A stretch of DNA of 64,000 bases from Schmidtea polychroa (Eukaryota): contig CM097885.1 of NCBI GenBank assembly GCA_044892525.1, forward strand, positions 3,226,001-3,290,000, given 5' to 3'. The notes below the pieces were generated by a model, which saw only the letters and a list, made by a program, of their open reading frames with translations, was not told the origin of the DNA and did not search any database. Positions within the stretch are counted from its first letter, which is position 1, and the number at the start of each line of letters is the position of its first letter. A program made the translations under genes and the position numbers. Shown here piece by piece: positions 4,379 through 64,000 of the stretch.

Positions 4379-4394
4379 CTACAGCACCCGATTT

Positions 4395-4710
4395 CATCAA
4401 TCAATCAATATTTATAATTCCAATAATCAATGAAATGACAATGAAAGAAATAATGAAAAAGATTATAAAAAATTATTTATTAATTGATATTTAAATGAAT
4501 AATTAATAAATAATAATTAAATAATTATCAGAATAAACAATAATAATCAAAAACGGGCAATAATAATAATCAATACCAAGAAATAAATAATCAATAATAA
4601 TGAATGACAATAGATAATGAATCGATAATAATATTCAATAATAATCAATAAAAATAATAATCAATAACAATAATATATAATAATAAATAGTAATCAATAT
4701 AATTTATTAT
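4395..4710. repeat. AT-rich low-complexity tract of degenerate AAT/AATC/AATAATC units
   Basis: Recurrent aataataatcaat-like words between the acceptor and the satellite. Confidence 0.75.
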
Positions 4711-4732
4711 ACGATGTGATCGAAATGTGCGT

Positions 4733-7700
4733 GATAGATATATAGAGTGAGAGAGATAGAGATATAGAGATAGAGAGAGATATAGAGATATAGAGATAGA
4801 GAGAGATATAGAGATATAGAGAGAGATAGCGATATAGAGATAGAGATAGAGATAGAGATAGAGAGATATAGATATAGAGACAGATAGAGTTATAGAGATA
4901 GAGAGATAGAGATATAGAGATAGAAATATAGATATAGAGATAGCGATATAGAGATAGAGATAGCGATATAGAGATATATATAGAGATAGAGAGATATAGA
5001 TAGCGATATAGAGATAGAGAGATATAGATATAGAGACAGATAGAGTTATAGAGATAGAGAGATAGAGATATAGAGATAGAAATATAGATAGAGATATAGA
5101 AATAGAGATATAGAGATATAGAGATAGCGATATAGAGATAGAGATAGCGATATAGAGATATAGATAGAGATAGAGAGGTATAGATATAGAGACAGATAGA
5201 GTTATAGAGATAGAGAGAGAGATATAGAGAGAGATAGAGATATAGAGATATAGAGAGAGATATAGATATAGAGAGAGATATAGAGATAAAGAGAGATATA
5301 GAGATATAGAGAGAAATATAGATAGAGAGATATAGATAGAGAGATATAGAGATAGAGATATAGAGATAGAGATAGGGAGATAGAGATAGGGAGATATAGA
5401 GATAGAGATAGGGAGATAGAGATATAGATATAGAGAGATAGAGATAGGGAGATAGAGATAGGGAGATAGAGATAGGGAGATAGAGATAGGGAGATATGGA
5501 GATAGAGATATAGAGATATAGATAGAGATATAGATATAGAGAGATAGAGATAGGGAGATATAGAGATAGGGAGATATAGAGATAGGGAGATATAGAGATA
5601 GAGATAGGGAGATAGAGATAGAGATATAGAGATAGAGATAGAGAGATATAGATATAGAGACAGATAGAGTTATAGAGATAGAGAGAGAGATATAGAGAGA
5701 GATAGAGATATAGAGAGAGATATAGATATAGAGAGAGATATAGAGATAAAGAGAGATATAGAGATATAGAGAGAAATATAGATAGAGAGATATAGATAGA
5801 GAGATATAGAGATAGAGATATAGAGATAGAGATAGGGAGATATAGAGATAGAGATAGAGATAGGGAGATAGAGATATAGATATAGAGAGATAGAGATAGG
5901 GAGATAGAGATAGGGAGATAGAGATAGGGAGATAGAGATAGGGAGATATAGAGATAGAGATAGAGATAGAGATATAGAGAGATAGAGATAGGGAGATAGA
6001 TATAGAGATATAGAGATAGAGATATAGATATAGAGAGATAGAGATAGGGAGATAGAGATAGGGAGACATAGAGATAGAGATAGGGAGATAGAGATAGGGA
6101 GATAGAGATAGGGAGATATAGAGATAGAGATAGAGATATAGATATAGAGAGATAGAGAAAGGGAGATAGAGATAGGGAGATAGAGATATAGATATAGAGA
6201 GATAGAGATAGAGATATAGATAGAGAGATATAGAGATAGAGATATAGAGATAGAGATAGGGAGATAGAGATAGGGAGATATAGAGATAGAGATAGGGAGA
6301 TAGAGATAGGGAGATAGAGATAGGGAGATAGAGATAGGGAGATAGAGATAGGGAGATATAGAGATAGAGATATAGAGATAGAGATAGATATAGAGATAGA
6401 GATAGAGATATAGATATAGAGAGATAGAGATAGGGAGATAGAGATAGGGAGATAAAGAGATAGGGAGATATAGAGATAGAGATAGGGAGATAGAGATAGA
6501 GATAGAGATAGGGAGATATAGAGATAGAGATATAGAGATAGAGATATAGATATAGAGAGATAGAGATAGGGAGATAGAGATAGGGAGATATAGAGATAGA
6601 GATAGGGATAGAGATAGAGATATAGAGAGATAGAGATAGAGATATAGATATAGAGATAGAGATAGGGAGATATAGAGATAGAGAGAGAGAGATAGGGAGA
6701 TAGAGATATAGATATAGAGAGATAGAGATAGGGAGATATAGAGATAGAGATAGAGATATAGAGATAGAGATAGAGATATAGAGATAGAGATAGAGATAGA
6801 GATAGAGATATAGAGAGATAGAGATAGGGAGATATAGAGATAGAGATAGAGATAGGGAGATAGAGATATAGATATAGAGAGATAGAGATAGGGAGATATA
6901 GAGATAGAGATAGAGATATAGAGATAGAGATATAGAGATAGAGATATAGATATAGAGAGAGAGATATAGAGATAGAGATATAGAGAGAGAGAGAGAGATA
7001 GGGAGATAGAGATAGGGAGATATAGAGATAGGGAGATATAGAGATAGGGAGATATAGAGATAGGGAGATATAGAGATAGGGAGATATAGAGATAGGGAGA
7101 TATAGAGATAGGGAGATATAGAGATAGAGATAGGGAGATAGAGATAGGGAGATATAGAGATAGAGATAGGGAGATAGAGATAGGTAGATAGAGATAGGGA
7201 GATATAGAGATAGGGAGATATAGAGATAGGGAGATATAGAGATAGGGAGATATAGAGATAGAGATAGGGAGATAGAGATATAGATATAGAGAGATAGAGA
7301 TAGGGAGATAGAGATAGGGAGATAGAGATAGGGAGATAGAGATAGGGAGATAGAGATAGGGAGATATAGAGATAGAGATATAGAGATAGGGAGATAGAGA
7401 TAGGGAGATATAGAGATAGAGATGGGGAGATAGAGATATAGATATAGAGAGATAGAGATAGGGAGATAGAGATAGGGAGAAAGAGATAGAGATATAGAGA
7501 TAGGGAGATATAGAGATAGGGAGATATAGAGATAGGGAGATATAGAGATAGGGAGATAGAGATAGAGATATAGATATAGAGAGATAGGGAGATATAGAGA
7601 TAGGGAGATATAGAGATAGAGATAGGGAGATAGAGATATAGATATAGAGAGATAGAGATAGGGAGATAGAGATAGGGAGATAGAGATAGGGAGATATAGA

Positions 7701-10700
7701 GATAGGGAGATATAGAGATAGGGAGATATAGAGATAGGGAGATATAGAGATAGGGAGATATAGAGATAGAGATAGGGAGATAGAGATAGGGAGATATAGA
7801 GATAGAGATAGGGAGATAGAGATAGGTAGATAGAGATAGGGAGATATAGAGATAGGGAGATATAGAGATAGGGAGATAGAGATAGGGAGATATAGAGATA
7901 GAGATGGGGAGATAGAGATATAGATATAGAGAGATAGAGATAGGGAGATAGAGATAGGGAGAAAGAGATAGAGATATAGAGATAGGGAGATATAGAGATA
8001 GGGAGATATAGAGATAGGGAGATATAGAGATAGGGAGATAGAGATAGAGATATAGATATAGAGAGATAGGGAGATATAGAGATAGGGAGATATAGAGATA
8101 GAGATAGGGAGATAGAGATATAGATATAGAGAGATAGAGATAGGGAGATAGAGATAGGGAGATAGAGATAGGGAGATATAGAGATAGGGAGATATAGAGA
8201 TAGGGAGATATAGAGATAGGGAGATATAGAGATAGGGAGATATAGAGATAGAGATAGGGAGATAGAGATAGGGAGATATAGAGATAGAGATAGGGAGATA
8301 GAGATAGGTAGATAGAGATAGGGAGATATAGAGATAGGGAGATATAGAGATAGGGAGATATAGAGATAGGGAGATATAGAGATAGAGATAGGGAGATAGA
8401 GATATAGATATAGAGAGATAGAGATAGGGAGATAGAGATAGGGAGATAGAGATAGGGAGATAGAGATAGGGAGATAGAGATAGGGAGATATAGAGATAGA
8501 GATATAGAGATAGGGAGATAGAGATAGGGAGATATAGAGATAGAGATGGGGAGATAGAGATATAGATATAGAGAGATAGAGATAGGGAGATAGAGATAGG
8601 GAGAAAGAGATAGAGATATAGAGATAGGGAGATATAGAGATAGGGAGATATAGAGATAGGGAGATATAGAGATAGGGAGATAGAGATAGAGATATAGATA
8701 TAGAGAGATAGGGAGATATAGAGATAGGGAGATATAGAGATAGAGATAGGGAGATAGAGATATAGATATAGAGAGATAGAGATAGGGAGATAGAGATAGG
8801 GAGATAGAGATAGGGAGATATAGAGATAGGGAGATATAGAGATAGGGAGATATAGAGATAGGGAGATATAGAGATAGGGAGATATAGAGATAGGGAGATA
8901 TAGAGATAGAGATAGGGAGATATAGAGATAGAGATATAGATATAGATATAGAGAGATAGAGATATAGATATAGAGAGATAGAGATAGGGAGATAGAGATA
9001 GGGAGATAGAGATAGGGAGATAGAGATAGGGAGATAGAGATAGAGATATAGAGATAGGGAGATATAGAGATAGGGAGATATAGAGATAGGGAGATATAGA
9101 GATAAGGAGATATAGAGATAGGGAGATATAAAGATAGGGAGATATAGAGATAGAGATATAGATATAGAGATAGGGAGATATAGAGATAGGGAGATATAGA
9201 GATAGGGAGATATAGAGAGAGATAGAGATATAGATATAGAGAGATAGGGAGATAGAGATAGGGAGATAGAGATATAGAGAGATAGAGATAGGGAGATAGA
9301 GATAGGGAGATATAGATATAGGGAGATATAGAGATAGGGAGATATAGAGATAGGGAGATATAGAAATAGGGAGATATAGAGATAGGGAGATATAGAGATA
9401 GGGAGATATAGAGATAGGGAGATATAGAGATAGGGAGATATAGAGATAGGAAGATAGAGATAGAGATATAGATATAGAGAGATAGGGAGATAGAGATAGG
9501 GAGATAGAGATAGGGAGATATAGAGATAGGGAGATATAGAGATAGGGAGATAGAGATAGAGATATAGATATAGAGATAGGGAGATATAGAGATAGGGAGA
9601 TATAGAGATAGGGAGATATAGAGATAGAGATATAGATATAGAGATAGGGAGATATAGAGATAGAGATATAGAGAGATAGAGATAGGGAGATAGAGATAGG
9701 GAGATATAGAGATAGGGAGATATAGTGATAGGGAGATATAGAGATAGGGAGATATAGAGATAGGGAGATATAAAGATAGGGAGATATAGAGATAGAGATA
9801 TAGATATAGGGATAGGGAGATATAGAGATAGGGAGATAGAGATAGGGAGATATAGAGATAGAGATAGGGAGATAGAGATATAGATATAGAGAGATAGAGA
9901 TAGGGAGATAGAGATAGGGAGATATAGAGATAGAGATAGAGATATAGATATAGAGAGATAGAGATAGGGAGATAGAGATATAGAGATAGGGAGATAGAGA
10001 TATAGATATAGAGAGATAGAGATATAGAGATAGAGATAGGGAGATATAGAGATAGAGATAGAGATAGAGATATAGATATAGAGAGATAGAGATAGGGAGA
10101 TAGAGATAGGGAGATAGAGATATAGATATAGAGAGATAGAGATAGAGATATAGATAGAGAGATATAGAGATAGAGATATAGAGATAGAGATAGGGAGATA
10201 GAGATAGGGAGATATAGAGATAGAGATAGGGAGATAGAGATATAGATATAGAGAGATAGAGATAGGGAGATAGAGATAGGGAGATAGAGATAGGGAGATA
10301 GAGATAGGGAGATAGAGATAGGGAGATATAGAGATAGAGATATAGAGATAGAGATAGATATAGAGATAGAGATAGAGATATAGATAAAGAGAGATAGAGA
10401 TAGGGAGATAGAGATAGGGAGATATAGAGATAGGGAGATATAGAGATATAGGGAGATAGAGATAGAGATATAGAGATAGAGATAGGGAGATATAGAGATA
10501 GAGATATAGAGAGATAGAGATAGAGATATAGATATAGAGATAGAGATAGGGAGATATAGAGATAGAGAGAGATAGGGAGATAGAGATATAGATATAGAGA
10601 GATAGAGATAGGGAGATATAGAGATAGAGATAGAGATATAGAGATAGAGATATAGAGATAGGGAGATAGAGATATAGATATAGGGAGATAGAGAGGGAGA

Positions 10701-13700
10701 TATAGAGATAGAGATATAGAGATATAGATAGAGATAGAGAGATAAAGAGAGATATAGAGATATAGAGAAATATAGATAGAGAGATATAGATAGAGATATA
10801 GAGATAGAGATATAGAGATAGAGATAGGGAGATATAGAGATAGAGATAGGGAGATAGAGATAGGGAGATATAGAGATAGGGAGATATAGATATAGGGAGA
10901 TAGAGAGGGAGATATAGAGATAGAGATATAGAGATATAGATAGAGATAGAGAGATAAAGAGAGATATAGAGATATAGAGAAATATAGATAGAGAGATATA
11001 GATAGAGATATAGAGATAGAGATATAGAGATAGAGATAGGGAGATAAAGATATAGATATAGAGAGATAGAGATAGGGAGATATAGAGATAGAGATAGATA
11101 TAGATATAGGGAGATAGAGTGGGAGATATAGAGATAGAGATATAGAGATATAGATAGAGATAGAGAGATAGAGATAGGGAGATATAGAGATAGAGATATA
11201 GAGATAGAGATAGAGATATAGATATAGAGAGAGAGATAGGGAGATAGAGATAGGGAGATAGAGATAGGGAGATATAGAGATAGGGAGATATAGAGATAGG
11301 GAGATATAGAGATAGAGATAGGGAGATAGAGATAGGGAGATAGAGATAGGGAGATATAGAGATAGAGATAGGTAGATAGAGATATGGAGATATAGAGATA
11401 TGGAGATATAGAGATAGGGAGATATAGAGATAGGGAGATATAGAGATAGGGAGATATAGAGATAGGGAGATAGAGATAGGGAGATATAGAGATAGAGATA
11501 GGGAGATAGAGATATAGATATAGAGAGATAGAGATAGGGAGATAGAGATAGGGAGATAGAGATAGGGAGATAGAGATAGGGAGATATAGAGATAGAGATA
11601 GGTAGACAGAGATATGGAGATATAGAGATAGGGAGATATAGAGATAGGGAGATATAGAGATAGGGAGATATAGAGATAGGGAGATAGAGATAGGGAGATA
11701 GAGATAGGGAGATATAGAGATAGAGATAGGTAGATAGAGATATGGAGATATAGGGAGATATAGAGATAGGGAGATATAGAGATAGGGAGATATAGAGATA
11801 GGGAGATATAGAGATAGGGAGATAGAGATAGGGAGATATAGAGATAGAGATAGGGAGATAGAGATATAGATATAGAGAGATAGAGATAGGGAGATAGAGA
11901 TAGGGAGATAGAGATAGGGAGATATAGAGATAGAGATATGGAGATATAGAGATAGGGAGATATAGAGATAGGGAGATATAGAGATAGGGAGATATAGAGA
12001 TAGGGAGATATAGAGATAGGGAGATATAGAGATAGGGAGATAGAGATAGGGAGATATAGAGATAGAGATAGGGAGATAGAGATATAGATATAGAGAGATA
12101 GAGATAGGGAGATAGAGATAGGGAGATATAGAGATAGGGAGATATAGAGATAGGGAGATATAGAGATAGGGAGATAGAGATAGGGAGATAGAGATAGGGA
12201 GATATAGAGATAGAGATAGGTAGATAGAGATATGGAGATATAGAGATAGGGAGATATAGAGATAGGGAGATATAGAGATAGGGAGATATAGAGATAGGGA
12301 GATATAGAGATAGGGAGATAGAGATAGGGAGATATAGAGATAGAGATAGGGAGATATAGAGATAGGGAGATATAGAGATAGGGAGATATAGAGATAGGGA
12401 GATATAGAGATAGGGAGATATAGAGATAGGGAGATAGAGATAGGGAGATATAGAGATAGAGATAGGGAGATAGAGATATAGATATAGAGAGATAGAGATA
12501 GGGAGATAGAGATAGGGAGATATAGAGATAGGGAGATATAGAGATAGGGAGATATAGAGATAGGGAGATATAGAGATAGGGAGATATAGAGATAGGGAGA
12601 TATAGAGATAGGGAGATATAGAGATAGGGAGATATAGAGATAGGGAGATATAGAGATAGGGAGATAGAGATAGAGATATAGATATAGAGAGATAGGGAGA
12701 TAGAGATAGGGAGATAGAGATAGGGAGATATAGAGATAGGGAGATATAGAGATAGGGAGATATAGAGATAGGGAGATATAGAGATAGGGAGATATAGAGA
12801 TAGGGAGATATAGAGATAGGGAGATATAGAGATAGGGAGATATAGAGATAGGGAGATATAGAGATAGGGAGATATAGAGATAGGGAGATATAGAGATAGG
12901 GAGATATAGAGATAGGGAGATATAGAGATAGGGAGATATAGAGATAGGGAGATATAGGGATAGGGAGATATAGAGATATAGATATAGATATAGAGAGATA
13001 GAGATATAGATATAGAGAGATAGAGATAGGGAGATAGAGATAGGGAGATAGAGATAGGGAGATATAGAGATAGGGAGATATAGAGATAGGGAGATATAGA
13101 GATAGGGAGATATAGAGATAGGGAGATATAAAGATAGGGAGATATAGAGATAGAGATATAATAGAGATAGGGAGATATAGAGATAGGGAGATATAGAGAT
13201 AGGGAGATATAGAGAGAGATAGAGATATAGATATAGAGAGATAGGGAGATAGAGATAGGGAGATAGAGATATAGAGAGATAGAGATAGGGAGATAGAGAT
13301 AGGGAGATATAGAGATAGGGAGATATAGAGATAGGGAGATATAGAGATAGGGAGATATAGAGATAGGGAGATATAGAGATAGGGAGATATAGAGATAGGG
13401 AGATATAGAGATAGGGAGATATAGAGATAGGGAGATATAGATAGAGATATAGATATAGAGAGATAGGGAGATAGAGATAGGGAGATATAGAGATAGGGAG
13501 ATATAGAGATAGGGAGATAGAGATAGAGATATAGATATAGAGATAGGGAGATATAGAGATAGGGAGATATAGAGATAGGGAGATATAGAGATAGGGAGAT
13601 ATAGAGATAGGGAGATATAGAGATAGAGATATAGATATAGAGATAGGGAGATATAGAGATAGAGATATAGATATAGATATAGAGAGATAGAGATATAGAT

Positions 13701-16700
13701 ATAGAGAGATAGAGATAGGGAGATAGAGATAGGGAGATATAGAGATAGGGAGATATAGAGATAGGGAGATAGAGATAGGGAGATATAGAGATAGAGATAG
13801 GGAGATATAGAGATAGGGAGATATAGAGATAGGGAGATATAGAGATAGGGAGATATAGAGATAGGGAGATATAGAGATAGGGAGATAGAGATAGGGAGAT
13901 ATAGAGATAGAGATAGGGAGATAGAGATATAGATATAGAGAGATAGAGATAGGGAGATAGAGATAGGGAGATATAGAGATAGGGAGATATAGAGATAGGG
14001 AGATATAGAGATAGGGAGATATAGAGATAGGGAGATATAGAGATAGGGAGATATAGAGATAGGGAGATATAGAGATAGGGAGATATAGAGATAGGGAGAT
14101 ATAGAGATAGGGAGATAGAGATAGAGATATAGATATAGAGAGATAGGGAGATAGAGATAGGGAGATAGAGATAGGGAGATAGAGATAGGGAGATATAGAG
14201 ATAGGGAGATATAGAGATAGGGAGATATAGAGATAGGGAGATATAGAGATAGGGAGATATAGAGATAGGGAGATATAGAGATAGGGAGATATAGGGATAG
14301 GGAGATATAGAGATATAGATATAGATATAGAGAGAGAGATAGGGAGATAGAGATAGGGAGATAGAGATAGGGAGATATAGAGATAGGGAGATATAGAGAT
14401 AGGGAGATATAGAGATAGAGATAGGGAGATAGAGATAGGGAGATAGAGATAGGGAGATATAGAGATAGAGATAGGTAGATAGAGATATGGAGATATAGAG
14501 ATATGGAGATATAGAGATAGGGAGATATAGAGATAGGGAGATATAGAGATAGGGAGATATAGAGATAGGGAGATAGAGATAGGGAGATATAGAGATAGAG
14601 ATAGGGAGATAGAGATATAGATATAGAGAGATAGAGATAGGGAGATAGAGATAGGGAGATAGAGATAGGGAGATAGAGATAGGGAGATATAGAGATAGAG
14701 ATAGGTAGACAGAGATATGGAGATATAGAGATAGGGAGATATAGAGATAGGGAGATATAGAGATAGGGAGATATAGAGATAGGGAGATAGAGATAGGGAG
14801 ATAGAGATAGGGAGATATAGAGATAGAGATAGGTAGATAGAGATATGGAGATATAGGGAGATATAGAGATAGGGAGATATAGAGATAGGGAGATATAGAG
14901 ATAGGGAGATATAGAGATAGGGAGATAGAGATAGGGAGATATAGAGATAGAGATAGGGAGATAGAGATATAGATATAGAGAGATAGAGATAGGGAGATAG
15001 AGATAGGGAGATAGAGATAGGGAGATATAGAGATAGAGATATGGAGATATAGAGATAGGGAGATATAGAGATAGGGAGATATAGAGATAGGGAGATATAG
15101 AGATAGGGAGATATAGAGATAGGGAGATATAGAGATAGGGAGATAGAGATAGGGAGATATAGAGATAGAGATAGGGAGATAGAGATATAGATATAGAGAG
15201 ATAGAGATAGGGAGATAGAGATAGGGAGATATAGAGATAGGGAGATATAGAGATAGGGAGATATAGAGATAGGGAGATAGAGATAGGGAGATAGAGATAG
15301 GGAGATATAGAGATAGAGATAGGTAGATAGAGATATGGAGATATAGAGATAGGGAGATATAGAGATAGGGAGATATAGAGATAGGGAGATATAGAGATAG
15401 GGAGATATAGAGATAGGGAGATAGAGATAGGGAGATATAGAGATAGAGATAGGGAGATATAGAGATAGGGAGATATAGAGATAGGGAGATATAGAGATAG
15501 GGAGATATAGAGATAGGGAGATATAGAGATAGGGAGATAGAGATAGGGAGATATAGAGATAGAGATAGGGAGATAGAGATATAGATATAGAGAGATAGAG
15601 ATAGGGAGATAGAGATAGGGAGATATAGAGATAGGGAGATATAGAGATAGGGAGATATAGAGATAGGGAGATATAGAGATAGGGAGATATAGAGATAGGG
15701 AGATATAGAGATAGGGAGATATAGAGATAGGGAGATATAGAGATAGGGAGATATAGAGATAGGGAGATAGAGATAGAGATATAGATATAGAGAGATAGGG
15801 AGATAGAGATAGGGAGATAGAGATAGGGAGATATAGAGATAGGGAGATATAGAGATAGGGAGATATAGAGATAGGGAGATATAGAGATAGGGAGATATAG
15901 AGATAGGGAGATATAGAGATAGGGAGATATAGAGATAGGGAGATATAGAGATAGGGAGATATAGAGATAGGGAGATATAGAGATAGGGAGATATAGAGAT
16001 AGGGAGATATAGAGATAGGGAGATATAGAGATAGGGAGATATAGAGATAGGGAGATATAGGGATAGGGAGATATAGAGATATAGATATAGATATAGAGAG
16101 ATAGAGATATAGATATAGAGAGATAGAGATAGGGAGATAGAGATAGGGAGATAGAGATAGGGAGATATAGAGATAGGGAGATATAGAGATAGGGAGATAT
16201 AGAGATAGGGAGATATAGAGATAGGGAGATATAAAGATAGGGAGATATAGAGATAGAGATATAATAGAGATAGGGAGATATAGAGATAGGGAGATATAGA
16301 GATAGGGAGATATAGAGAGAGATAGAGATATAGATATAGAGAGATAGGGAGATAGAGATAGGGAGATAGAGATATAGAGAGATAGAGATAGGGAGATAGA
16401 GATAGGGAGATATAGAGATAGGGAGATATAGAGATAGGGAGATATAGAGATAGGGAGATATAGAGATAGGGAGATATAGAGATAGGGAGATATAGAGATA
16501 GGGAGATATAGAGATAGGGAGATATAGAGATAGGGAGATATAGATAGAGATATAGATATAGAGAGATAGGGAGATAGAGATAGGGAGATATAGAGATAGG
16601 GAGATATAGAGATAGGGAGATAGAGATAGAGATATAGATATAGAGATAGGGAGATATAGAGATAGGGAGATATAGAGATAGGGAGATATAGAGATAGGGA

Positions 16701-19528: not shown

Positions 19529-19559
<31 letters not shown>

Positions 19560-27096: not shown

Positions 27097-27143
<47 letters not shown>

Positions 27144-28612: not shown

Positions 28613-28650
<38 letters not shown>

Positions 28651-30776: not shown

Positions 30777-30816
<40 letters not shown>

Positions 30817-32290: not shown

Positions 32291-32330
<40 letters not shown>

Positions 32331-38157: not shown

Positions 38158-38197
<40 letters not shown>

Positions 38198-43772: not shown

Positions 43773-43816
<44 letters not shown>

Positions 43817-45204: not shown

Positions 45205-45235
<31 letters not shown>

Positions 45236-51200: not shown

Positions 51201-51416
51201 ATATAGAGATAGAGATAGAGATAGGGAGATATAGAGATAGAGATAGGGAGATAGAGATAGGGAGATAGAGATAGGGAGATATAGAGATAGAGATTGAGAT
51301 AGAGATAGAGATATAGAGAGATAGAGATAGGGAGATATAGAGATAGAGATAGAGATATAGAGATAGAGATATAGAGATAGAGATATAGATATAGAGAGAG
51401 AGATATAGAGATAGAG

Positions 51417-51458
<42 letters not shown>

Positions 51459-54400
51459 GGAGATAGAGATAGGGAGATAGAGATAGGGAGATATAGAGAT
51501 AGGGAGATATAGAGATAGGGAGATATAGAGATAGGGAGATATAGAGATAGAGATAGGGAGATAGAGATAGGGAGATATAGAGATAGAGATAGGGAGATAG
51601 AGATAGGGAGATATAGAGATAGGGAGATATAGAGATAGGGAGATATAGAGATAGAGATAGGGAGATAGAGATATAGATATAGAGAGATAGAGATAGGGAG
51701 ATAGAGATAGAGAGATATAGAGATAGAGATATAGAGATAGGGAGATAGAGATAGGGAGATATAGAGATAGAGATAGGGAGATAGAGATATAGATATAGAG
51801 AGATAGAGATAGGGAGATAGAGATAGGGAGAAAGAGATAGAGATATAGAGATAGGGAGATATAGAGATAGGGAGATATAGAGATAGGGAGATATAGAGAT
51901 AGGGAGATAGAGATAGAGATAAAGATATAGAGAGATAGGGAGATAGAGATAGGGAGATAGAGATAGGGAGATAGAGATAGGGAGATATAGAGATAGGGAG
52001 ATATAGAGATAGGGAGATATAGAGATAGGGAGATATAGAGATAGGGAGATATAGAGATAGGGAGATATAGAGATAGGGAGATATAGAGATAGGGAGATAT
52101 AGAGATAGGGAGATATAGAGATAGAGATAGGGAGATATAGAGATAGAGATATAGATATAGATATAGAGAGATAGAGATATAGATATAGAGAGATAGAGAT
52201 AGGGAGATAGAGATAGGGAGATAGAGATAGGGAGATAGAGATAGGGAGATAGAGATATAGAGATAGGGAGATATAGAGATAGGGAGATATAGAGATAGGG
52301 AGATATAGAGATAAGGAGATATAGAGATAGGGAGATATAAAGATAGGGAGATATAGAGATAGAGATATAGATATAGAGAGATAGGAAGATAGAGATAGGG
52401 AGATAGAGATATAGAGAGATAGAGATAGGGAGATAGAGATAGGGAGATATAGATATAGGGAGATATAGAGATAGGGAGATATAGAGATAGGGAGATATAG
52501 AGATAGGGAGATATAGAGATAGGGAGATATAGAGATAGGGAGATATAGAGATAGGGAGATATAGAGATAGGGAGATATAGAGATAGGGAGATAGAGATAG
52601 AGATATAGATATAGAGAGATAGGGAGATAGAGATAGGGAGATAGAGATAGGGAGATATAGAGATAGGGAGATATAGAGATAGGGAGATAGAGATAGAGAT
52701 ATAGATATAGAGATAGGGAGATATAGAGATAGGGAGATATAGAGATAGGGAGATATAGAGATAGAGATATAGATATAGAGATAGGGAGATATAGAGATAG
52801 AGATATAGAGAGATAGAGATAGGGAGATAGAGATAGGGAGATATAGAGATAGGGAGATATAGTGATAGGGAGATATAGAGATAGGGAGATATAGAGATAG
52901 GGAGATATAAACATAGGGAGATATAGAGATAGAGATATAGATATAGAGATAGGGAGATATAGAGATAGGGAGATAGAGATAGGGAGATATAGAGATAGAG
53001 ATAGGGAGATAGAGATATAGATATAGAGAGATAGAGATAGGGAGATAGAGATAGGGAGATATAGAGATAGAGATATAGAGATATAGATATAGAGAGATAG
53101 AGATAGGGAGATAGATATAGAGATAGAGATAGAGAGATATAGAGATAGAGATAGAGATAGAGATATAGATATAGAGAGATAGAGATAGGGAGATAGAGAT
53201 AGGGAGATAGAGATATAGATATAGAGAGATAGAGATAGAGATATAGATAGAGAGATATAGAGATAGAGATATAGAGATAGAGATAGGGAGATAGAGATAG
53301 GGAGATATAGAGATAGAGATATGGAGATAAAGATATAGATATAGAGAGATAGAGATAGGGAGATAGAGATAGGGAGATAGAGATAGGGAGATAGAGATAG
53401 GGAGATAGAGACAGGGAGATATAGAGATAGAGATATAGAGATAGAGATAGATATAGAGATAGAGATAGAGATAGAGATATAGATATAGAGATAGGGAGAT
53501 ATAAAGATAGGGAGATATAGAGATAGAGATATAGATATAGAGATAGGGAGATATAGAGATAGGGAGATATAGAGATAGGGAGATATAGAGAGAGATAGAG
53601 ATATAGATATAGAGAGATAGGGAGATAGAGATAGGGAGATAGAGATATAGAGAGATAGAGATAGGGAGATAGAGATAGGGAGATATAGATATAGGGAGAT
53701 ATAGAGATAGGGAGATATAGAGATAGGGAGATATAGAGATAGGGAGATATTGAGATAGGGAGATAAAGAGATAGGGAGATATAGAGATAGGGAGATATAG
53801 AGATAGGGAGATATAGAGATAGGGAGATATAGAGATAGGGAGATAGAGATAGAGATATAGATATAGAGAGATAGGGAGATAGAGATAGGGAGATAGAGAT
53901 AGGGAGATATAGAGATAGGGAGATATAGAGAGAGATAGAGATATAGATATAGAGAGATAGGGAGATAGAGATAGAGATATAGATATAGAGAGATAGGGAG
54001 ATAGAGATAGGGAGATAGAGATAGGGAGATATAGAGATAGGGAGATATAGAGATAGGGAGATAGAGATAGAGATATAGATATAGAGATAGGGAGATATAG
54101 AGATAGGGAGATATAGAGATAGGGAGATATAGAGATAGGGAGATATAGAGATAGGGAGATATAGAGATAGGGAGATATAAAGATAGGGAGATATAGAGAT
54201 AGAGATATAGATATAGAGATAGGGAGATATAGAGATAGAGATATAGATATAGATATAGAGAGATAGAGATAGGGAGATAGAGATAGGGAGATATAGAGAT
54301 AGGGAGATATAGAGATAGGGAGATATAGAGATAGGGAGATATAGAGATAGGGAGATATAAAGATAGGGAGATATAGAGATAGAGATATAGATATAGAGAT

Positions 54401-57400
54401 AGGGAGATATAGAGATAGGGAGATATAGAGATAGGGAGATATAGATAGAGATATAGATATAGAGAGATAGGGAGATAGAGATAGGGAGAGATAGAGATAG
54501 GGAGATATAGAGATAGGGAGATATAGAGATAGGGAGATGTAGAGATAGGGAGATATAGAGATAGGGAGATATAGAGATAGGGAGATATAGAGATAGAGAT
54601 ATAGATATAGAGATAGGGAGATATAGAGATAGAGATATAGATATAGATATAGAGAGATAGAGATATAGATATAGAGAGATAGAGATAGGGAGATAGAGAT
54701 AGGGAGATATAGAGATAGGGAGATATAGAGATAGGGAGATATAGAGATAGGGAGATATAGAGATAGGGAGATATAAAGATAGGGAGATATAGAGATAGAG
54801 ATATAGATATAGAGATAGGGAGATATAGAGATAGGGAGATATAGAGATAGGGAGATATAGAGAGAGATAGAGATATAGATATAGAGAGATAGGGAGATAG
54901 AGATAGAGATATAGATATAGAGAGATAGGGAGATAGAGATAGGGAGATAGAGATAGGGAGATATAGAGATAGGGAGATAGAGATAGGGAGATATAGAGAT
55001 AGGGAGATAGAGATAGAGATATAGATATAGAGATAGGGAGATATAGAGATAGGGAGATATAGAGATAGGGAGATATAGAGATAGGGAGATATAGAGATAG
55101 GGAGATATAGAGATAGGGAGATATAGAGATAGGGAGATATAAAGATAGGGAGATATAGAGATAGAGATATAGATATAGAGATAGGGAGATATAGAGATAG
55201 GGAGATAGAGATAGGGAGATATAGAGATAGAGATAGGGAGATAGAGATATAGATATAGAGAGATAGAGATAGGGAGATATAGAGATAGGGAGATATAGAG
55301 ATAGGGAGATATAGAGATAGGGAGATATAGAGATAGGGAGATATAGAGATAGAGATAGGGAGATAGAGATAGGGAGATATAGAGATAGAGATTGAGATAG
55401 AGATAGAGATATAGAGAGATAGAGATAGGGAGATATAGAGATAGAGATAGAGATATAGAGAGATAGAGATAGGGAGATATAGAGATAGAGATAGAGATAT
55501 AGAGATAGAGATATAGAGATAGAGATATAGATATAGAGAGAGAGATATAGAGATAGAGATATAGAGAGAGAGAGAGAGAGAGAGAGATAGGGAGATAGAG
55601 ATAGGGAGATAGAGATAGGGAGATATAGAGATAGGGAGATATAGAGATAGGGAGATATAGAGATAGGGAGATATAGAGATAGGGAGATATAGAGATAGGG
55701 AGATATAGAGATAGGGAGATATAGAGATAGGGAGATATAGAGATAGGGAGATATAGAGATAGGGAGATAGGGAGATAGGGAGATATAGAGATAGGGAGAT
55801 ATAGAGATAGGGAGATATAGAGATAGGGAGATATAGAGATAGGGAGATATAGAGATAGGGAGATATAAAGATAGGGAGATATAGAGATAGAGATATAGAT
55901 ATAGAGATAGGGAGATATAGAGGTAGAGATATAGATATAGATATAGAGAGATAGAGATAGGGAGATAGAGATAGGGAGATATAGAGATAGGGAGATATAG
56001 AGATAGGGAGATATAGAGATAGGGAGATATAGAGATAGGGAGATATAAAGATAGGGAGATATAGAGATAGAGATATAGATATAGAGATAGGGAGATATAG
56101 AGATAGGGAGATATAAAGATAGGGAGATATAGAGATAGAGATATAGATATAGAGATAGGGAGATATAGAGATAGGGAGATATAGAGATAGGGAGATATAG
56201 AGATAGGGAGATATAGAGAGAGATAGAGATATAGATATAGAGAGATAGGGAGATAGAGATAGGGAGATAGAGATAAAGAGAGATATAGAGATATAGAGAG
56301 AAATATAGATAGAGAGATATAGATAGAGATATATAGAGATAGAGATAGAGATAGGGAGATATAGAGATAGAGATAGGGAGATAGAGATAGGGAGATAGAG
56401 ATAGGGAGATATAGAGATAGAGATTGAGATAGAGATAGAGATATAGAGAGATAGAGATAGGGAGATAGAGATAGAGATAGAGATATAGAGAGATAGAGAT
56501 AGGGAGATATAGAGATAGAGATAGAGATATAGAGATAGAGATATAGAGATAGAGATATAGATATAGAGAGAGAGATATAGAGATAGAGATATAGAGAGAG
56601 AGAGAGAGAGAGAGATAGGGAGATAGAGATAGGGAGATAGAGATAGGGAGATATAGAGATAGGGAGATATAGAGATAGGGAGATATAGAGATAGGGAGAT
56701 ATAGAGATAGGGAGATATAGAGATAGGGAGATATAGAGATAGGGAGATATAGAGATAGGGAGATATAGAGATAGGGAGATATAGAGATAGGGAGATAGGG
56801 AGATAGGGAGATATAGAGATAGGGAGATATAGAGATAGGGAGATATAGAGATAGGGAGATATAGAGATAGGGAGATATAGAGATAGGGAGATATAGAGAT
56901 AGGGAGATATAGAGATAGAGATAGGGAGATATAGAGATAGAGATATAGATATAGATATAGAGAGATAGAGATATAGATATAGAGAGATAGAGATAGGGAG
57001 ATAGAGATAGGGAGATATAGATATAGGGAGATATAGAGATAGGGAGATATAGAGATAGGGAGATATAGAGATAGGGAGATATAGAGATAGGGAGATATAG
57101 AGATAGGGAGATATAGAGATAGGGAGATAGAGATAGAGATATAGATATAGAGAGATAGGGAGATAGAGATAGGGAGATAGAGATAGGGAGATATAGAGAT
57201 AGGGAGATATAGAGATAGGGAGATAGAGATAGAGATATAGATATAGAGATAGGGAGATATAGAGATAGGGAGATATAGAGATAGGGAGATATAGAGATAG
57301 AGAGATATAGAGATAGGGAGATATAGAGATAGGGAGATATAGAGATAGGGAGATATAGAGATAGGGAGATATAGAGATAGGGAGATATAGAGATAGGGAG

Positions 57401-60400
57401 ATATAGAGATAGAGATAGGGAGATATAGAGATAGAGATATAGATATAGATATAGAGAGATAGAGATATAGATATAGAGAGATAGAGATAGGGATATAGAG
57501 ATAGGGAGATAGAGATAGGGAGATAGAGATAGGGAGATAGAGATATAGAGATAGGGAGATATAGAGATAGGGAGATATAGAGATAGGGAGATATAGAGAT
57601 AAGGAGATATAGAGATAGGGAGATATAAAGATAGGGAGATATAGAGATAGGGAGATATAGAGATAGGGAGATATAGAGATAGGGAGATATAGAGATAGAG
57701 ATATAGATATAGAGATAGGGAGATATAGAGATAGGGAGATATAGAGATAGGGAGATATAGAGAGAGATAGAGATATAGATATAGAGAGATAGGGAGATAG
57801 AGATAGGGAGATAGAGATATAGAGAGATAGAGATAGGGAGATAGAGATAGGGAGATATAGAGATTGGGAGATATAGAGATAGGGAGATAGAGATAGGGAG
57901 ATATAGAGATAGCGAGATATAGAGATAGGGAGATATAGAGATAGGGAGATATAGAGATAGGGAGATATAGAGATAGGGAGATATAGAGATAGAGATAGGG
58001 AGATATAGAGATAGAGATATAGATATAGATATAGAGAGATAGAGATATAGATATAGAGAGATAGAGATAGGGAGATAGAGATAGGGAGATAGAGATAGGG
58101 AGATAGAGATAGGGAGATAGAGATATAGAGATAGGGAGATATAGAGATAGGGAGATATAGAGATAGGGAGATATAGAGATAAGGAGATATAGAGATAGGG
58201 AGATATAAAGATAGGGAGATATAGAGATAGAGATATAGATATAGAGATAGGGAGATATAGAGATAGGGAGATATAGAGATAGGGAGATATAGAGAGAGAT
58301 AGAGATATAGATATAGAGAGATAGGGAGATAGGGAGATAGAGATATAGAGAGATAGAGATAGGGAGATAGAGATAGGGAGATATAGATATAGGGAGATAT
58401 AGAGATAGGGAGATATAGAGATAGGGAGATATAGAGATAGGGAGATATAGAGATAGGGAGATATAGAGATAGGGAGATATAGAGATAGGGAGATATAGAG
58501 ATAGGGAGATATAGAGATAGGGAGATAGAGATAGAGATATAGATATAGAGAGATAGGGAGATAGAGATAGGGAGATAGAGATAGGGAGATATAGAGATAG
58601 GGAGATATAGAGATAGGGAGATAGAGATAGAGATATAGAGATAGGGAGATATAGAGATAGGGAGATATAGAGATAGGGAGATATAGAGATAGAGATATAG
58701 ATATAGAGATAGGGAGATATAGAGATAGAGATATAGAGAGATAGAGATAGGGAGATAGTGATAGGGAGATATAGAGATAGGGAGATATAGAGATAGGGAG
58801 ATATAAAGATAGGGAGATATAGAGATAGAGATATAGATATAGAGATAGGGAGATATAGAGATAGGGAGATAGAGATAGGGAGATATAGAGATAGAGATAG
58901 GGAGATAGAGATATAGATATAGAGAGATAGAGATAGGGAGATATAGAGATAGGGAGATATAGAGATAGGGAGATATAGAGATAGGGAGATATAGAGATAG
59001 GGAGATATAGAGATAGAGATAGGGAGATAGAGATAGGGAGATATAGAGATAGAGATAGGGAGATATAGAGATAGGGAGATAGAGATAGGGAGATATAGAG
59101 ATAGGGAGATATAGAGATAGAGATATAGAGATAGAGATATAGATATAGAGAGATAGAGATAGGGAGATAGATATAGAGATAGAGATAGGGAGATATAGAG
59201 ATAGAGATAGAGATAGAGATATAGATATAGAGAGATAGAGATAGGGAAATAGAGATAGGGAGATAGAGATATAGATATAGAGAGATAGAGATAGAGATAG
59301 AGATAGAGAGATATAGAGATAGAGATATAGAGATAGAGATAGGGAGATAGAGATAGGGAGATATAGAGATAGAGATAGGGAGATAAAGATATAGATATAG
59401 AGAGATAGAGATAGGGAGATAGAGATAGGGAGATAGAGATAGGGAGATAGAGATAGGGAGATAGAGATAGGGAGATATAGAGATAGAGATATAGAGATAG
59501 AGATATAGAGAGATAGAGATATAGAGATAGGGAGATAGAGATAGAGATAGAGATATAGATATAGAGAGATAGAGATAGGGAGATAGAGATAGGGAGATAT
59601 AGAGATATAGGGAGATAGAGATAGAGATATAGAGATAGAGATAGGGAGATATAGAGATAGAGATATAGAGAGATAGAGATATAGGGAGATAGAGATATAG
59701 ATATAGAGATAGAGATAGGGAGATATAGAGATAGAGAGAGATAGGGAGATAGAGATATAGATATAGAGAGATAGAGATAGGGGGATATAGAGATAGAGAT
59801 AGAGATATAGAGATAGAGATATAGAGATAGGGAGATAGAGATATAGATAGAGGGAGATAGAGAGGGAGATATAGAGATAGAGATATAGAGATATAGATAG
59901 AGATAGAGAGATAAAGAGAGATATAGAGATATAGAGAAATATAGATAGAGAGATATAGATAGAGATATAGAGATAGAGATATAGAGATAGAGATAGGGAG
60001 ATATAGATAGGGAGATAGAGAGGGAGATATAGAGATAGAGATATAGAGATATAGATAGAGATAGAGAGATAAAGAGAGATATAGAGATATAGAGAAATAT
60101 AGATAGAGAGATATAGATAGAGATATAGAGATAGAGATATAGAGATAGAGATAGGGAGATAAAGATATAGAGATAGGGAGATATAGATATAGAGAGATAG
60201 AGATAGGGAGATAGAGATAGGGAGATATAGAGATAGAGATAGAGATAGAGATAGAGATATAGAGAGATAGAGATAGGGAGATATAGAGATAGAGATAGTG
60301 ATAGGGAGATAGAGATATAGATATAGAGAGATAGAGATAGGGAGATATAGAGATAGAGATAGATATAGATATAGGGAGATAGAGAGGGAGATATAGAGAT

Positions 60401-63400
60401 AGAGATATAGAGATATAGATAGAGATAGAGAGATAGAGATAGGGAGATATAGAGATAGAGATATAGAGATAGAGATATAGATATAGAGAGATAGGGAGAT
60501 AGAGATAGGGAGATAGAGATAGGGAGATATAGAGATAGAGAGATAGAGATAGGGAGATAGAGATAGGGAGATAGAGATAGGGAGATAGAGATAGGGAGAT
60601 AGAGATAGGGAGATAGAGATAGGGAGATATAGAGATAGGGAGATATAGAGATAGGGAGATATAGAGATAGGGAGATATAGAGATAGGGAGATATAGAGAT
60701 AGGGAGATATAGAGATAGGGAGATAGAGATAGAGATATAGATATAGAGAGATAGGGAGATAGAGATAGGGAGAAAGAGATAGGGAGATAGAGATAGGGAG
60801 ATAGAGATAGGGAGATATAGAGATAGGGAGATATAGAGATAGGGAGATATAGAGATAGGGAGATATAGAGATAGGGAGATATAGAGATAGGGAGATATAG
60901 AGATAGAGATAGGGAGATATAGAGATAGGGAGATATAGAGATAGGGAGATATAGAGATATAGATATAGATATAGACAGATAGAGATATAGATATAGAGAG
61001 ATAGAGATAGGGAGATAGAGATAGGGAGATAGAGATAGGGAGATATAGAGATAGGGAGATATAGAGATAGGGAGATATAGAGATAGGGAGATATAGAGAT
61101 AGGGAGATATAGAGATAGGGAGATATAAAGATAGGGAGATATAGAGATAGAGATATAGATATAGAGATAGGGAGATATAGAGATAGGGAGATATAGAGAT
61201 AGGGAGATATAGAGAGAGATAGAGATATAGATATAGAGAGATAGGGAGATAGAGATAGGGAGATAGAGATATAGAGAGATAGAGATAGGGAGATAGAGAT
61301 AGGGAGATATAGAGATAGGGAGATATAGAGATAGGGAGATATAGAGATAGGGAGATATAGAGATAGAGATATAGAGATAGAGATAGATATAGAGATAGAG
61401 ATAGAGATAGAGATATAGATATAGAGATAGGGAGATATAAAGATAGGGAGATATAGAGATAGAGATATAGATATAGAGATAGGGAGATATAGAGATAGGG
61501 AGATATAGAGATAGGGAGATATAGAGAGAGATAGAGATATAGATATAGAGAGATAGGGAGATAGAGATAGGGAGATAGAGATATAGAGAGATAGAGATAG
61601 GGAGATAGATATAGGGAGATATAGAGATAGGGAGATATAGAGATAGGGAGATATAGAGATAGGGAGATATTGAGATAGGGAGATATAGAGATAGGGAGAT
61701 ATAGAGATAGGGAGATATAGAGATAGGGAGATATAGAGATAGGGAGATATAGAGATAGGGAGATAGAGATAGAGATATAGATATAGAGATAGGGAGATAG
61801 AGATAGGGAGATAGAGATAGGGAGATAGAGATAGGGAGATATAGAGAGAGATAGAGATATAGATATAGAGAGATAGGGAGATAGAGATAGAGATATAGAT
61901 ATAGAGAGATAGGGAGATAGAGATAGGGAGATAGAGATAGGGAGATATAGAGATAGGGAGATATAGAGATAGGGAGATAGAGATAGAGATATAGATATAG
62001 AGATAGGGAGATATAGAGATAGGGAGATATAGAGATAGGGAGATATAGAGATAGGGAGATATAGAGATAGGGAGATATAGAGATAGGGAGATATAAAGAT
62101 AGGGAGATATAGAGATAGAGATATAGATATAGAGATAGGGAGATATAGAGATAGAGATATAGATATAGATATAGAGAGATAGAGATAGGGAGATAGAGAT
62201 AGGGAGATATAGAGATAGGGAGATATAGAGATAGGGAGATATAGAGATAGGGAGATATAGAGATAGGGAGATATAAAGATAGGGAGATATAGAGATAGAG
62301 ATATAGATATAGAGATAGGGAGATATAGAGATAGGGAGATATAGAGATAGGGAGATATAGATAGAGATATAGATATAGAGAGATAGGGAGATAGAGATAG
62401 GGAGAGATAGAGATAGGGAGATATAGAGATAGGGAGATATAGAGATAGGGAGATATAGAGATAGGGAGATATAGAGATAGGGAGATATAGAGATAGGGAG
62501 ATATAGAGATAGAGATATAGATATAGAGATAGGGAGATATAGAGATAGAGATATAGATATAGATATAGAGAGATAGAGATATAGATATAGAGAGATAGAG
62601 ATAGGGAGATAGAGATAGGGAGATATAGAGATAGGGAGATATAGAGATAGGGAGATATAGAGATAGGGAGATATAGAGATAGGGAGATATAAAGATAGGG
62701 AGATATAGAGATAGAGATATAGATATAGAGATAGGGAGATATAGAGATAGGGAGATATAGAGATAGGGAGATATAGAGAGAGATAGAGATATAGATATAG
62801 AGAGATAGGGAGATAGAGATAGAGATATAGATATAGAGAGATAGGGAGATAGAGATAGGGAGATAGAGATAGGGAGATATAGAGATAGGGAGATAGAGAT
62901 AGGGAGATATAGAGATAGGGAGATAGAGATAGAGATATAGATATAGAGATAGGGAGATATAGAGATAGGGAGATATAGAGATAGGGAGATATAGAGATAG
63001 GGAGATATAGAGATAGGGAGATATAGAGATAGGGAGATATAGAGATAGGGAGATATAAAGATAAGGAGATATAGAGATAGAGATATAGATATAGAGATAG
63101 GGAGATATAGAGGTAGAGATATAGATATAGATATAGAGAGATAGAGATAGGGAGATAGAGATAGGGAGATATAGAGATAGGGAGATATAGAGATAGGGAG
63201 ATATAGAGATAGGGAGATATAGAGATAGGGAGATATAAAGATAGGGAGATATAGAGATAGAGATATAGATATAGAGATAGGGAGATATAGAGATAGGGAG
63301 ATATAAAGATAGGGAGATATAGAGATAGAGATATAGATATAGAGATAGGGAGATATAGAGATAGGGAGATATAGAGATAGGGAGATATAGAGATAGGGAG

Positions 63401-64000
63401 ATATAGAGAGAGATAGAGATATAGATATAGAGAGATAGGGAGATAGAGATAGGGAGATAGAGATAAAGAGAGATATAGAGATATAGAGAGAAATATAGAT
63501 AGAGAGATATAGATAGAGATATATAGAGATAGAGATAGAGATAGGGAGATATAGAGATAGAGATAGGGAGATAGAGATAGGGAGATAGAGATAGGGAGAT
63601 ATAGAGATAGAGATTGAGATAGAGATAGAGATATAGAGAGATAGAGATAGGGAGATATAGAGATAGAGATAGAGATATAGAGAGATAGAGATAGGGAGAT
63701 ATAGAGATAGAGATAGAGATATAGAGATAGAGATATAGAGATAGAGATATAGATATAGAGAGAGAGATATAGAGATAGAGATATAGAGAGAGAGAGAGAG
63801 AGAGAGAGATAGGGAGATAGAGATAGGGAGATAGAGATAGGGAGATATAGAGATAGGGAGATATAGAGATAGGGAGATATAGAGATAGGGAGATATAGAG
63901 ATAGGGAGATATAGAGATAGGGAGATATAGAGATAGGGAGATATAGAGATAGGGAGATATAGAGATAGGGAGATATAGAGATAGGGAGATAGGGAGATAG
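4733..64000. repeat. Purine-rich GATA/GAGA-type satellite, ~59.3 kb and continuing past the window edge, with higher-order duplications
   Basis: Built from GAGATA, GATATA and GGGAGATA words. Commonest units are 16-bp TATAGAGATAGGGAGA and 14-bp TAGAGATAGGGAGA. C is nearly absent from the + strand; about 15 embedded (AG)n tracts. Confidence 0.98.

What the first reader, a model, noticed from the sequence alone, without database searches (positions are those of the whole stretch)
4379..64000. Giant satellite-filled intron inside an otherwise compact ciliary gene (CEP290)
Seen: exon A starts at a phase-0 acceptor with no upstream exon for at least 59.6 kb, and after a ~350-bp AT-rich tract the interval is pure satellite. 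The ordinary introns of this gene are only 57-183 nt. Known: exon A maps to the middle of CEP290, so several hundred N-terminal residues must be encoded elsewhere. Satellite-driven intron gigantism is established for the Drosophila Y-linked fertility genes kl-3, kl-5 and ORY, where it needs dedicated RNA-binding factors. Inference: this may be an independent case in a cilium gene, with an intron about 1000-fold larger than its neighbours. It could delay transcription or act as an RNA scaffold. The exons look intact, so the gene appears functional.
Basis: partly seen in the sequence, partly recalled or inferred. Interest (0 to 1): 0.8.

Follow-up and report, generated by a model that had tools for sequence, protein, structure and literature searches.

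The report
66-kb satellite intron in flatworm CEP290
A flatworm's single, intact cilia gene CEP290 carries a real 66-kilobase intron made almost wholly of one simple repeat found nowhere else in the assembly and still splices it out, most likely a tolerated runaway local expansion rather than a dedicated timing device.

Summary
Confirmed and completed. The missing upstream exon lies 6.6 kb beyond the window on the same strand. This defines a 66,214-nt, phase-0, GT-AG intron (window 4379-70592), 99% simple repeat, about 1000 times the gene's median intron. Contigs from two studies' runs (RNA by guess) join the two exons exactly. The gene is single-copy and stop-free over 2310 modelled residues. 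'Otherwise compact' is wrong: other introns reach 21.3, 1.7 and 1.1 kb, and four more hold their own arrays. The array is locus-private (890 of 890 matches) and hierarchically duplicated. Its sense RNA has one AG, no AATAAA and no predicted structure. The Drosophila parallel is weak: 66 kb against megabases, and dynein genes show no higher intron load than myosins. The gene lies 3.2 Mb from a contig end, with codon GC peaking beside the arrays, which fits a recombination-active site. Array length in reads was not tested. The scan had no earlier report of this.

The parts
4379..64000 (-). Giant intron of CEP290 (intron 7 of my model). It continues beyond the window to 70592 (G000:C1:3230379-3296592): 66,214 nt, GT..AG, phase 0. 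Its upstream exon 7 (915 nt) lies outside the window at G000:C1:3296593-3297507 (L002:6593-7507), with the donor about 20 nt from the array
   Evidence: spliced junction in contigs of X8 and X9
4735..64000 (.). Locus-private compound simple-sequence array (plus-strand units GGGAGATA, TAGAGATA, GAGATA, TAGATA, TAGAGAGATA), 65.8 kb in all (to about 70572), with nested duplications of 1-14 kb. The sense RNA is 81% pyrimidine and 0.06% G
4379..4734 (-). AT-rich 3' spacer of the intron, ending in the TAG acceptor at 4381-4379
44627..44629 (-). The only AG dinucleotide on the sense strand of the array (a TAG after a pyrimidine run, not followed by GT)
4013..4378 (-).
3589..3910 (-). Exon 9; contigs from other individuals differ here by in-frame indels
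3430..3527 (-). Exon 10
1773..3429 (-). 1,657-nt intron holding a second locus-private array (20-mer, 79.5 copies, 1845-3418); spliced
   Evidence: 25 of 25 genome matches lie here
1437..1772 (-). Exon 11
1089..1379 (-). Exon 12
   Evidence: homology and frame only
663..1031 (-). Exon 13
   Evidence: homology and frame only
1..479 (-). Exon 14, which continues past the window start; the gene ends about 3.9 kb beyond it
   Evidence: homology and frame only

Best explanation
This is an ordinary GT-AG intron of the single CEP290 gene of a flatworm that has swollen to 66 kb by local runaway amplification of a simple repeat.
Shown: the boundaries, the splicing, an intact gene, an array private to this intron, and its nested duplications.
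Inferred, growth: slippage made a few 6-10-nt GATA-ending units, and unequal exchange or gene conversion then copied blocks of 1-14 kb.
Inferred, setting: the gene sits in a recombination-active spot near a chromosome end, which would also explain the other intronic arrays and the raised codon GC of the flanking exons.
Inferred, tolerance: the expansion persists because this orientation gives a nascent RNA that the splicing and 3'-end machinery can ignore (one AG, no AATAAA, no predicted structure). The polymerase transcribes through it, the small flanking exons are defined normally, and the intron is removed in one step, probably while coated by pyrimidine-binding hnRNPs. The cost is roughly half an hour of extra transcription, with no dedicated function.
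For: Junction: contigs of X8 (study P3) and X9 (study P4) cover exon 8, stop at 4379, and continue with the 30 nt that lie at window 70594 onward; neither covers the intron side. Intact gene: 21 exons joined give 2310 residues with no stop, all 20 introns are GT-AG, and the model is 34% identical to P0003 over 1814 columns. All 8 genome matches of P0003 are at this locus. Private array: 890 of 890 matches of a 40-mer lie in this intron. A simpler 24-mer occurs here 21 times and at three other short loci, 52 matches in all. Nested growth: exact repeats of 3,122 and 2,967 nt, and 83% of the array lies in low-copy exact 150-mer duplicates with spacings of about 1-13 kb. Local tendency: six arrays in five introns of this gene. 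Codon GC (GC3s) is 0.56 for CEP290, 0.69 in exons 8-12 and 0.32 in exon 1, against 0.33 pooled over 16 control loci. Among those controls GC3s falls with distance from a contig end (Spearman -0.66, p=0.006, n=16). The 3 controls within 3.5 Mb of an end have 0.48-0.53, and 2 of these 3 carry minisatellites between their coding matches. Tolerance: the sense strand has 1 AG and 0 AATAAA, while the antisense strand has 265 AG per kb. A 300-nt piece folds with MFE 0. Precedent: human VNTRs are enriched within 5 Mb of chromosome ends (PMC7608644, passages), and human intronic expansions reach 44 kb (DM2) or are spliced out (SCA10) (PMC2883596, passages).
Against: No recombination map or population data was available. 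The GC3 signal is indirect, the 16 controls were picked by me from dynein and myosin hits rather than at random, and the two nearest genes have ordinary GC3s (0.34 and 0.31), so any hot region must be gene-local. I did not show that the start of C1 is a telomere. AG avoidance is not a rule: the last intron's array has 42.9 AG per kb on the sense strand, and both control arrays carry sense AGs (17 in 826 nt, 9 in 200 nt). One AG observed against 7 expected from base composition is weak. The spliced contigs come from other individuals (about 1% different), whose array length is unknown, and their RNA status is a guess by the tool. Neutrality is assumed, not tested. The two cytoplasmic-type dyneins are the two most compact of 22 loci, which leaves room for longer introns in ciliary genes.
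Confidence: 0.68

Rival explanations
1. Functional gigantism as in Drosophila Y-loop genes: the satellite intron is selected as a transcription timer or an RNA scaffold in multiciliated or sperm-forming cells, and needs dedicated RNA-binding proteins (a PTB/Heph-like factor).
For: It is a real, spliced, satellite-filled intron about 1000x the median, in a ciliary gene. The RNA is unstructured and pyrimidine-rich, with 5,784 TCTCT and 2,905 TCCC words. Heph, the PTB homolog, acts on Y-loop transcripts (PMC6508621, passages). PMC11207136 notes that proposed intron-timer genes are about 10-80 kb (passage), a range this intron fits. Two axonemal-type dynein loci span 158 and 245 kb across the motor domain.
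Against: Y-loop introns hold megabases, and their transcription takes about 3.5 days; here the extra time is about 22-66 min at assumed rates. Genomic span per coding base has a median of 2.9-3.4 for 22 dynein loci against 5.1 for 12 myosin loci. 0 of 20 samples of 1.2 kb from the three longest dynein loci were satellite (tandem cover 0-0.19). The repeat is not shared with other genes.
Confidence: 0.12
2. The intron is real, but its length is an assembly or haplotype peculiarity: the true array is much shorter or longer, or is this large only in the sequenced individual.
For: No read-level test of the array was possible: X1 gave only 18-nt chance matches and X5 none. Two exact duplicates of about 3 kb could be false duplications. 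GA-rich sequence is error- and dropout-prone in some long-read chemistries (recalled).
Against: There is no gap in 264 kb. Every 3.2-kb window of the array is unique, so long accurate reads can resolve it. Rare variants recur in consistent contexts along the array. The exons on both sides are colinear and spliced, which rules out a misjoin to foreign DNA.
Confidence: 0.1
3. The array acts at DNA level, as a dense bank of GATA-factor or GAGA-type binding sites (a sink, insulator or enhancer) that sets the chromatin state of the gene.
For: There are 5,121 WGATAR and 870 GAGAG words in one locus, in a genome where such runs are otherwise very rare. That these are factor-binding consensus words is recalled.
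Against: Motif counts follow trivially from the repeat unit. There are no binding, accessibility or conservation data.
Confidence: 0.06
4. The two halves of the gene are transcribed separately and joined by trans-splicing, so the array is never transcribed through.
For: Contigs cannot tell cis from trans joining. Flatworms have spliced-leader trans-splicing (recalled).
Against: The exons are colinear on one strand with canonical sites. The first half has no AATAAA between its donor and the far end of the array, and no separate promoter is evident in the 356-nt spacer.
Confidence: 0.03

Closest known systems
Drosophila Y-linked gigantic genes kl-3, kl-5, ORY (satellite-containing introns; PMC6508621, PMC11207136, passages read)
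   Same: Small exons of a cilium or flagellum gene separated by an intron of simple satellite more than about 1000x a typical intron; the mature mRNA is correctly spliced.
   Different: 66 kb against megabases. The repeat is private to one intron rather than an abundant satellite family. The gene lies near a contig end on the largest chromosome, with raised codon GC, rather than in Y heterochromatin. No loop, dedicated factor or testis restriction has been shown.
Human intronic simple-repeat expansions: DM2 (CCTG, up to 44 kb, intron 1 of ZNF9/CNBP) and SCA10 (ATTCT, up to 4,500 copies, spliced out) (PMC2883596, passages read)
   Same: A locus-private, pyrimidine-rich sense repeat of tens of kb inside one intron of an intact gene, removed by splicing.
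   Different: Larger than the quoted DM2 maximum; a mosaic of five or more units with nested block duplications rather than a pure run; found in a reference assembly with no known disease; RNA foci are untested.
Subtelomeric intronic VNTRs/minisatellites (human; PMC7608644, passages read)
   Same: Locus-specific tandem arrays in introns within about 5 Mb of a chromosome end, with several in one gene.
   Different: Far longer than a usual VNTR (recalled scale), 36% GC rather than over 60%; length polymorphism was not tested here.
CEP290 (PF16574, CEP209_CC5 domain)
   Same: Full-length colinear ortholog: 34% identity over 1814 columns to Patella CEP290, single copy.
   Different: The gene spans about 100 kb, two thirds of it in one intron; the first exon or exons were not located.

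Membership tests
Spliceosomal (U2-type) intron of an intact CEP290 | GT donor and AG acceptor joining colinear exons in frame | tested here: met
Spliceosomal (U2-type) intron of an intact CEP290 | Junction present in transcript-like sequence | tested here: met
   2 of 4 runs laid (X8, X9; two studies); RNA status is a guess, but the contigs skip all introns in the stretch
Spliceosomal (U2-type) intron of an intact CEP290 | Host gene is a full-length CEP290 ortholog without stops, and the only copy | tested here: met
   the first exon was not found
Drosophila-type satellite intron gigantism (Y-loop programme) | Intron about 1000x typical and filled with simple satellite | tested here: met
   1027x the median of this gene's 20 modelled introns; 99% array
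Drosophila-type satellite intron gigantism (Y-loop programme) | Hundreds of kb to megabases, with transcription over days | tested here: not met
   66.2 kb in the assembly; 22-66 min at assumed rates
Drosophila-type satellite intron gigantism (Y-loop programme) | Shared by a set of axonemal genes | tested here: inconclusive
   19 of 22 dynein loci span 45 kb or less across the motor domain, and 0 of 20 samples of the three longest were satellite; only 24 kb was sampled and there is no genome-wide annotation
Drosophila-type satellite intron gigantism (Y-loop programme) | Lampbrush-like loop and dependence on dedicated RNA-binding proteins (Blanks, Heph) | not testable with these tools
   needs RNA-FISH and RNAi
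Intronic tandem-repeat expansion / VNTR-like locus | Array private to one locus | tested here: met
   890 of 890 matches
Intronic tandem-repeat expansion / VNTR-like locus | Signs of stepwise growth by slippage and block duplication | tested here: met
Intronic tandem-repeat expansion / VNTR-like locus | Length varies between individuals | not testable with these tools
   no reads could be laid on the array
Recursive splicing | AG|GT ratchet sites inside the long intron | tested here: not met
   the single sense AG is followed by AT, not GT

The most novel reading that the evidence does not exclude
This is an independently evolved, non-insect case of a satellite-intron expression programme. The 66-kb unstructured C/U-rich nascent RNA forms a loop or focus in multiciliated or sperm-forming cells of a flatworm, recruits PTB/hnRNP K-type proteins, and times or gates CEP290 output during ciliogenesis. 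It would be a healthy, RNAi-tractable counterpart of both Y loops and human repeat-expansion RNA foci.
Probability: 0.12. Interest if true: 0.78.

Novelty: new member of a known kind. Interest (0 to 1): 0.45.

Why it matters
Satellite-filled giant introns are studied almost only in Drosophila Y genes, and tens-of-kb simple-repeat introns otherwise mainly as human disease alleles. Here a fully assembled, exactly bounded 66-kb example sits in a single-copy cilia gene that is still spliced. That allows direct tests of whether such introns are tolerated by-products or functional: length polymorphism, RNA foci, dependence on PTB or hnRNP K, and comparison across related species. No paper in the searched library held all of 'flatworm', 'satellite DNA', 'intron' and 'CEP290', and nothing on this locus appeared in the listings. 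Most subscription journals and bioRxiv supplements are outside that library. If it is neutral, it is a striking but explicable extreme of a local repeat expansion.

Tried and rejected
(1) Coding reading: exon 7's frame stays open for 21,945 codons into the array. Rejected, because all three sense frames are nearly stop-free for lack of G and AA, the product would be Y/L/I/S/P low complexity, and spliced contigs use the donor. (2) Recursive splicing: no AG|GT site. (3) Known RNA families: 0 Rfam matches in window 1-8000. (4) Solved structures: no meaningful match for exon 8 (best E 0.053). (5) Enrichment of satellite introns in ciliary genes: not seen in dyneins against myosins or in 20 samples. 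The long dynein loci were sampled at 24 kb of about 470 kb, so arrays between samples could be missed. Rows left out: two AAA1 hits with no paired AAA6 hit (C1:134.7 Mb, C4:65.7 Mb), and partial or duplicated myosin hits (C1:11.2-11.4 Mb, 6.65 Mb, 238.9 Mb; C2:115.585 Mb). The dynein coding length was assumed (2000-2400 residues). Two dynein loci at C1:268.3 and 270.4 Mb look like duplicates, and both were counted. (6) Purifying selection against new AGs in the array: too few independent variants to test. (7) Shared intron position with human intron 25: a passage in PMC6562928 puts that boundary at K939. By my recall of the human protein this falls inside exon 8 here, not at the giant intron; it was not tested with a tool-supplied human sequence. 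(8) Read test of array length: no RNA holder was listed as on record; X1 gave only short chance matches and X5 none, which is no evidence either way. (9) A direct Pfam scan of the exons did not run; family identity rests. (10) Host identity: the GlnRS search was uninformative. For a myosin exon, the five highest-identity named hits (75-78%) were flatworms, although two rotifer and two fish proteins ranked higher by whole-protein E-value. Four chromosome-scale contigs and about 28-30% GC would fit a planarian (recalled; inference only).
Full report
Setting. The window is G000:C1:3226001-3290000 of a 781-Mb assembly; C1 is 271.6 Mb. Coordinates below are window coordinates, extended beyond 1-64000 where needed. 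For a myosin exon from this genome, the five highest-identity named hits (75-78%) are flatworm proteins, though rotifer and fish proteins ranked higher by whole-protein E-value. I treat the host as a flatworm; that it is a planarian is inference from recall.

Exon A (4378-4013, minus strand) begins at a phase-0 TAG acceptor. It is preceded by 356 nt of AT-rich sequence and then by GA-rich repeat to the window end. A search with a neighbouring frame returned 9 proteins of 3950 candidates, 8 of them with PF16574 and the best named one Patella CEP290.

The other end is found. I fetched 160 kb to the right and 40 kb to the left. tblastn with four homologs gave colinear minus-strand exons on both sides of the array; P0006 matches up to residue 734 at 70593 and resumes with residue 735 at 4378. 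The donor GT is at 70592, about 20 nt from the array. The intron is 66,214 nt, phase 0. All 8 genome-wide matches of P0003 lie at this locus. A 21-exon model gives 2310 residues without a stop, all 20 introns GT-AG, and 34% identity to P0003 over 1814 columns. A last exon at -3764 to -3904 closes the frame. The first exon was not located.

It is spliced. Of 4 runs laid on 3425-4490, X8 (study P3) and X9 (study P4) gave contigs that skip the two short introns and stop at 4379. Their loose end is identical to the genomic sequence from 70594 onward. Their other loose end matches 1742-1771, so the 1,657-nt intron is spliced too. Both runs are RNA only by the tool's guess and come from individuals about 1% different, so they prove the junction but not the array length. 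X1 gave short chance matches and X5 nothing.

The gene is not otherwise compact. The 20 modelled introns are 49-183 nt (15 of them), 734, 1,113, 1,657, 21,267 and 66,214 nt; the median is 64.5 and the ratio 1027. The last intron is 482 nt. Six tandem arrays sit in five introns. Without the giant intron, span per coding base is 4.7, near the myosin median of 5.1.

Anatomy of the array. It runs from about 4735 to 70572 with no N. Five units ending in GATA make up 90% of it. Exact repeats reach 3,122 and 2,967 nt, 83% of positions lie in low-copy exact 150-mer duplicates with spacings of about 1-13 kb, and every 3.2-kb window is unique. This is the pattern of slippage followed by block duplication, and it is resolvable by long reads. 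A 40-mer has 890 matches in the genome, all in this intron. A simpler 24-mer has 52 matches, 21 here and 31 at three short loci. The 20-mer array of the 1,657-nt intron is private as well (25 of 25).

Why it can be tolerated (inference from sequence). The sense strand is 81% pyrimidine and 0.06% G, with one AG, 24 GT and no AATAAA; the antisense strand has 265 AG per kb. A 300-nt piece has a minimum free energy of 0. There is no recursive site. Against making this a rule: one AG against 7 expected from composition is weak, the last intron's array has 42.9 sense AG per kb, and two control arrays carry sense AGs. A by-product of the composition is a frame open for 21,945 codons from exon 7 into the array; I do not read it as coding.

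Why here (inference). The gene lies 3.2-3.3 Mb from the start of C1. GC3s is 0.56 overall, 0.69 in exons 8-12 and 0.32 in exon 1, against 0.33 pooled over 16 control loci; the two-fold-site contrast for exons 8-12 has p=4e-24. Among controls, GC3s falls with distance from a contig end (rho -0.66, p=0.006). The three controls within 3.5 Mb of an end have 0.48-0.53, and two of them hold minisatellites between their coding matches. This fits a recombination-active site in which GC-biased conversion and unequal exchange act together, as with human subtelomeric VNTRs (PMC7608644, passages). Against it: the flanking GlnRS and P450-like genes have 0.34 and 0.31, the controls were not random, and there is no map.

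Is it a ciliary programme? Pairing AAA1 and AAA6 matches gave 22 dynein heavy-chain loci with motor-domain spans of 8.8-245 kb, median 20.5 kb. Their span per coding base (median 2.9-3.4, coding length assumed) is not above that of 12 myosin heads (5.1). None of 20 samples of 1.2 kb from the three longest loci was satellite. On the other side, the two cytoplasmic-type dyneins are the two most compact, and two axonemal-type paralogs span 158 and 245 kb (type assigned from recalled motifs). In Schmidtea mediterranea, epidermal and intestinal genes have more and longer introns than stem-cell or brain genes (PMC10558129, passage), so longer introns in ciliated-cell genes need no special programme. 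The Drosophila genes hold megabases of satellite, take about 3.5 days to transcribe and need Blanks and Heph (PMC6508621 and PMC11207136, passages). Here the added time is 22-66 min at an assumed 1-3 kb/min.

Comparison and verdict. It works most like a human intronic expansion of the DM2 or SCA10 kind (up to 44 kb in DM2; spliced out in SCA10; PMC2883596, passages) or an extreme subtelomeric VNTR. It resembles Y-loop genes in anatomy but fails their size criterion. For every paper named I saw only keyword passages, and no supplements. Verdict: real, spliced and exactly bounded; a new member of a known kind; most likely a tolerated local expansion (0.68), with a 0.12 chance of a functional loop or timer. 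Interest 0.45.

Noticed in passing
G000:C1:115525705-115770540 (+) and 115835640-115993822 (-); L022-L038, L054, L055: Two convergent axonemal-type dynein heavy-chain paralogs (alike in AAA1 motifs, and like the compact locus L044; DNAH10-like by recall) span 245 and 158 kb across the motor domain alone. They have the lowest or near-lowest GC3s of the controls (0.20, 0.13), and their intron samples are not satellite. They may be closer analogues of the giant Drosophila dynein genes than CEP290 is.
   Followed up: partly
L002-L004 (extended window coordinates 71810-93076): A 21.3-kb intron of the same gene holds two blocks of a 12-mer array and several repeats that recur in inverted order near 76-81 kb and 86-92 kb, suggesting a large inverted-repeat element.
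   Followed up: no
window 5673-64000 and on into L002 (extended coordinate 71507), minus strand: A reading frame open for 21,945 codons runs from exon 7 into the array, and another of 22,001 codons lies beside it; both follow from the G-free, AA-free sense strand.
   Followed up: yes
CEP290 exons 2-20: Codon GC rises from 0.32 in exon 1 to 0.69 beside the arrays and falls again, while the neighbouring genes are ordinary (0.31-0.34).
   Followed up: partly
L052:1255-2080 (C4, 0.44 Mb from the contig end) and L049:429-628: A myosin gene has a 51-mer x16 array, and a dynein gene a 41-mer x5 array, between coding matches; both genes have high GC3 and lie near contig ends.
   Followed up: partly
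window 3814-3906: Exon 9 has a Ser/Arg/Gly-rich stretch with in-frame length differences between the assembly and the contigs of X8 and X9.
   Followed up: no
G000:C1:268.25 Mb and 270.35 Mb; C1:11.18-11.22 Mb: Pairs of dynein and myosin matches with identical scores suggest recent segmental duplications or uncollapsed haplotypes.
   Followed up: no
L010-L017 (extended window coordinates about 149,000-215,000): A cluster of Polinton/Maverick-like open frames (integrase-, ATPase-, capsid- and polymerase-like by recall) lies upstream of the gene; observed only.
   Followed up: no
L006:7127-8815 (+) and L019 (extended window coordinates -17537 to -19054, minus strand): The nearest long open frames are a glutaminyl-tRNA synthetase and a cytochrome P450-like gene (recalled label).
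   Followed up: partly
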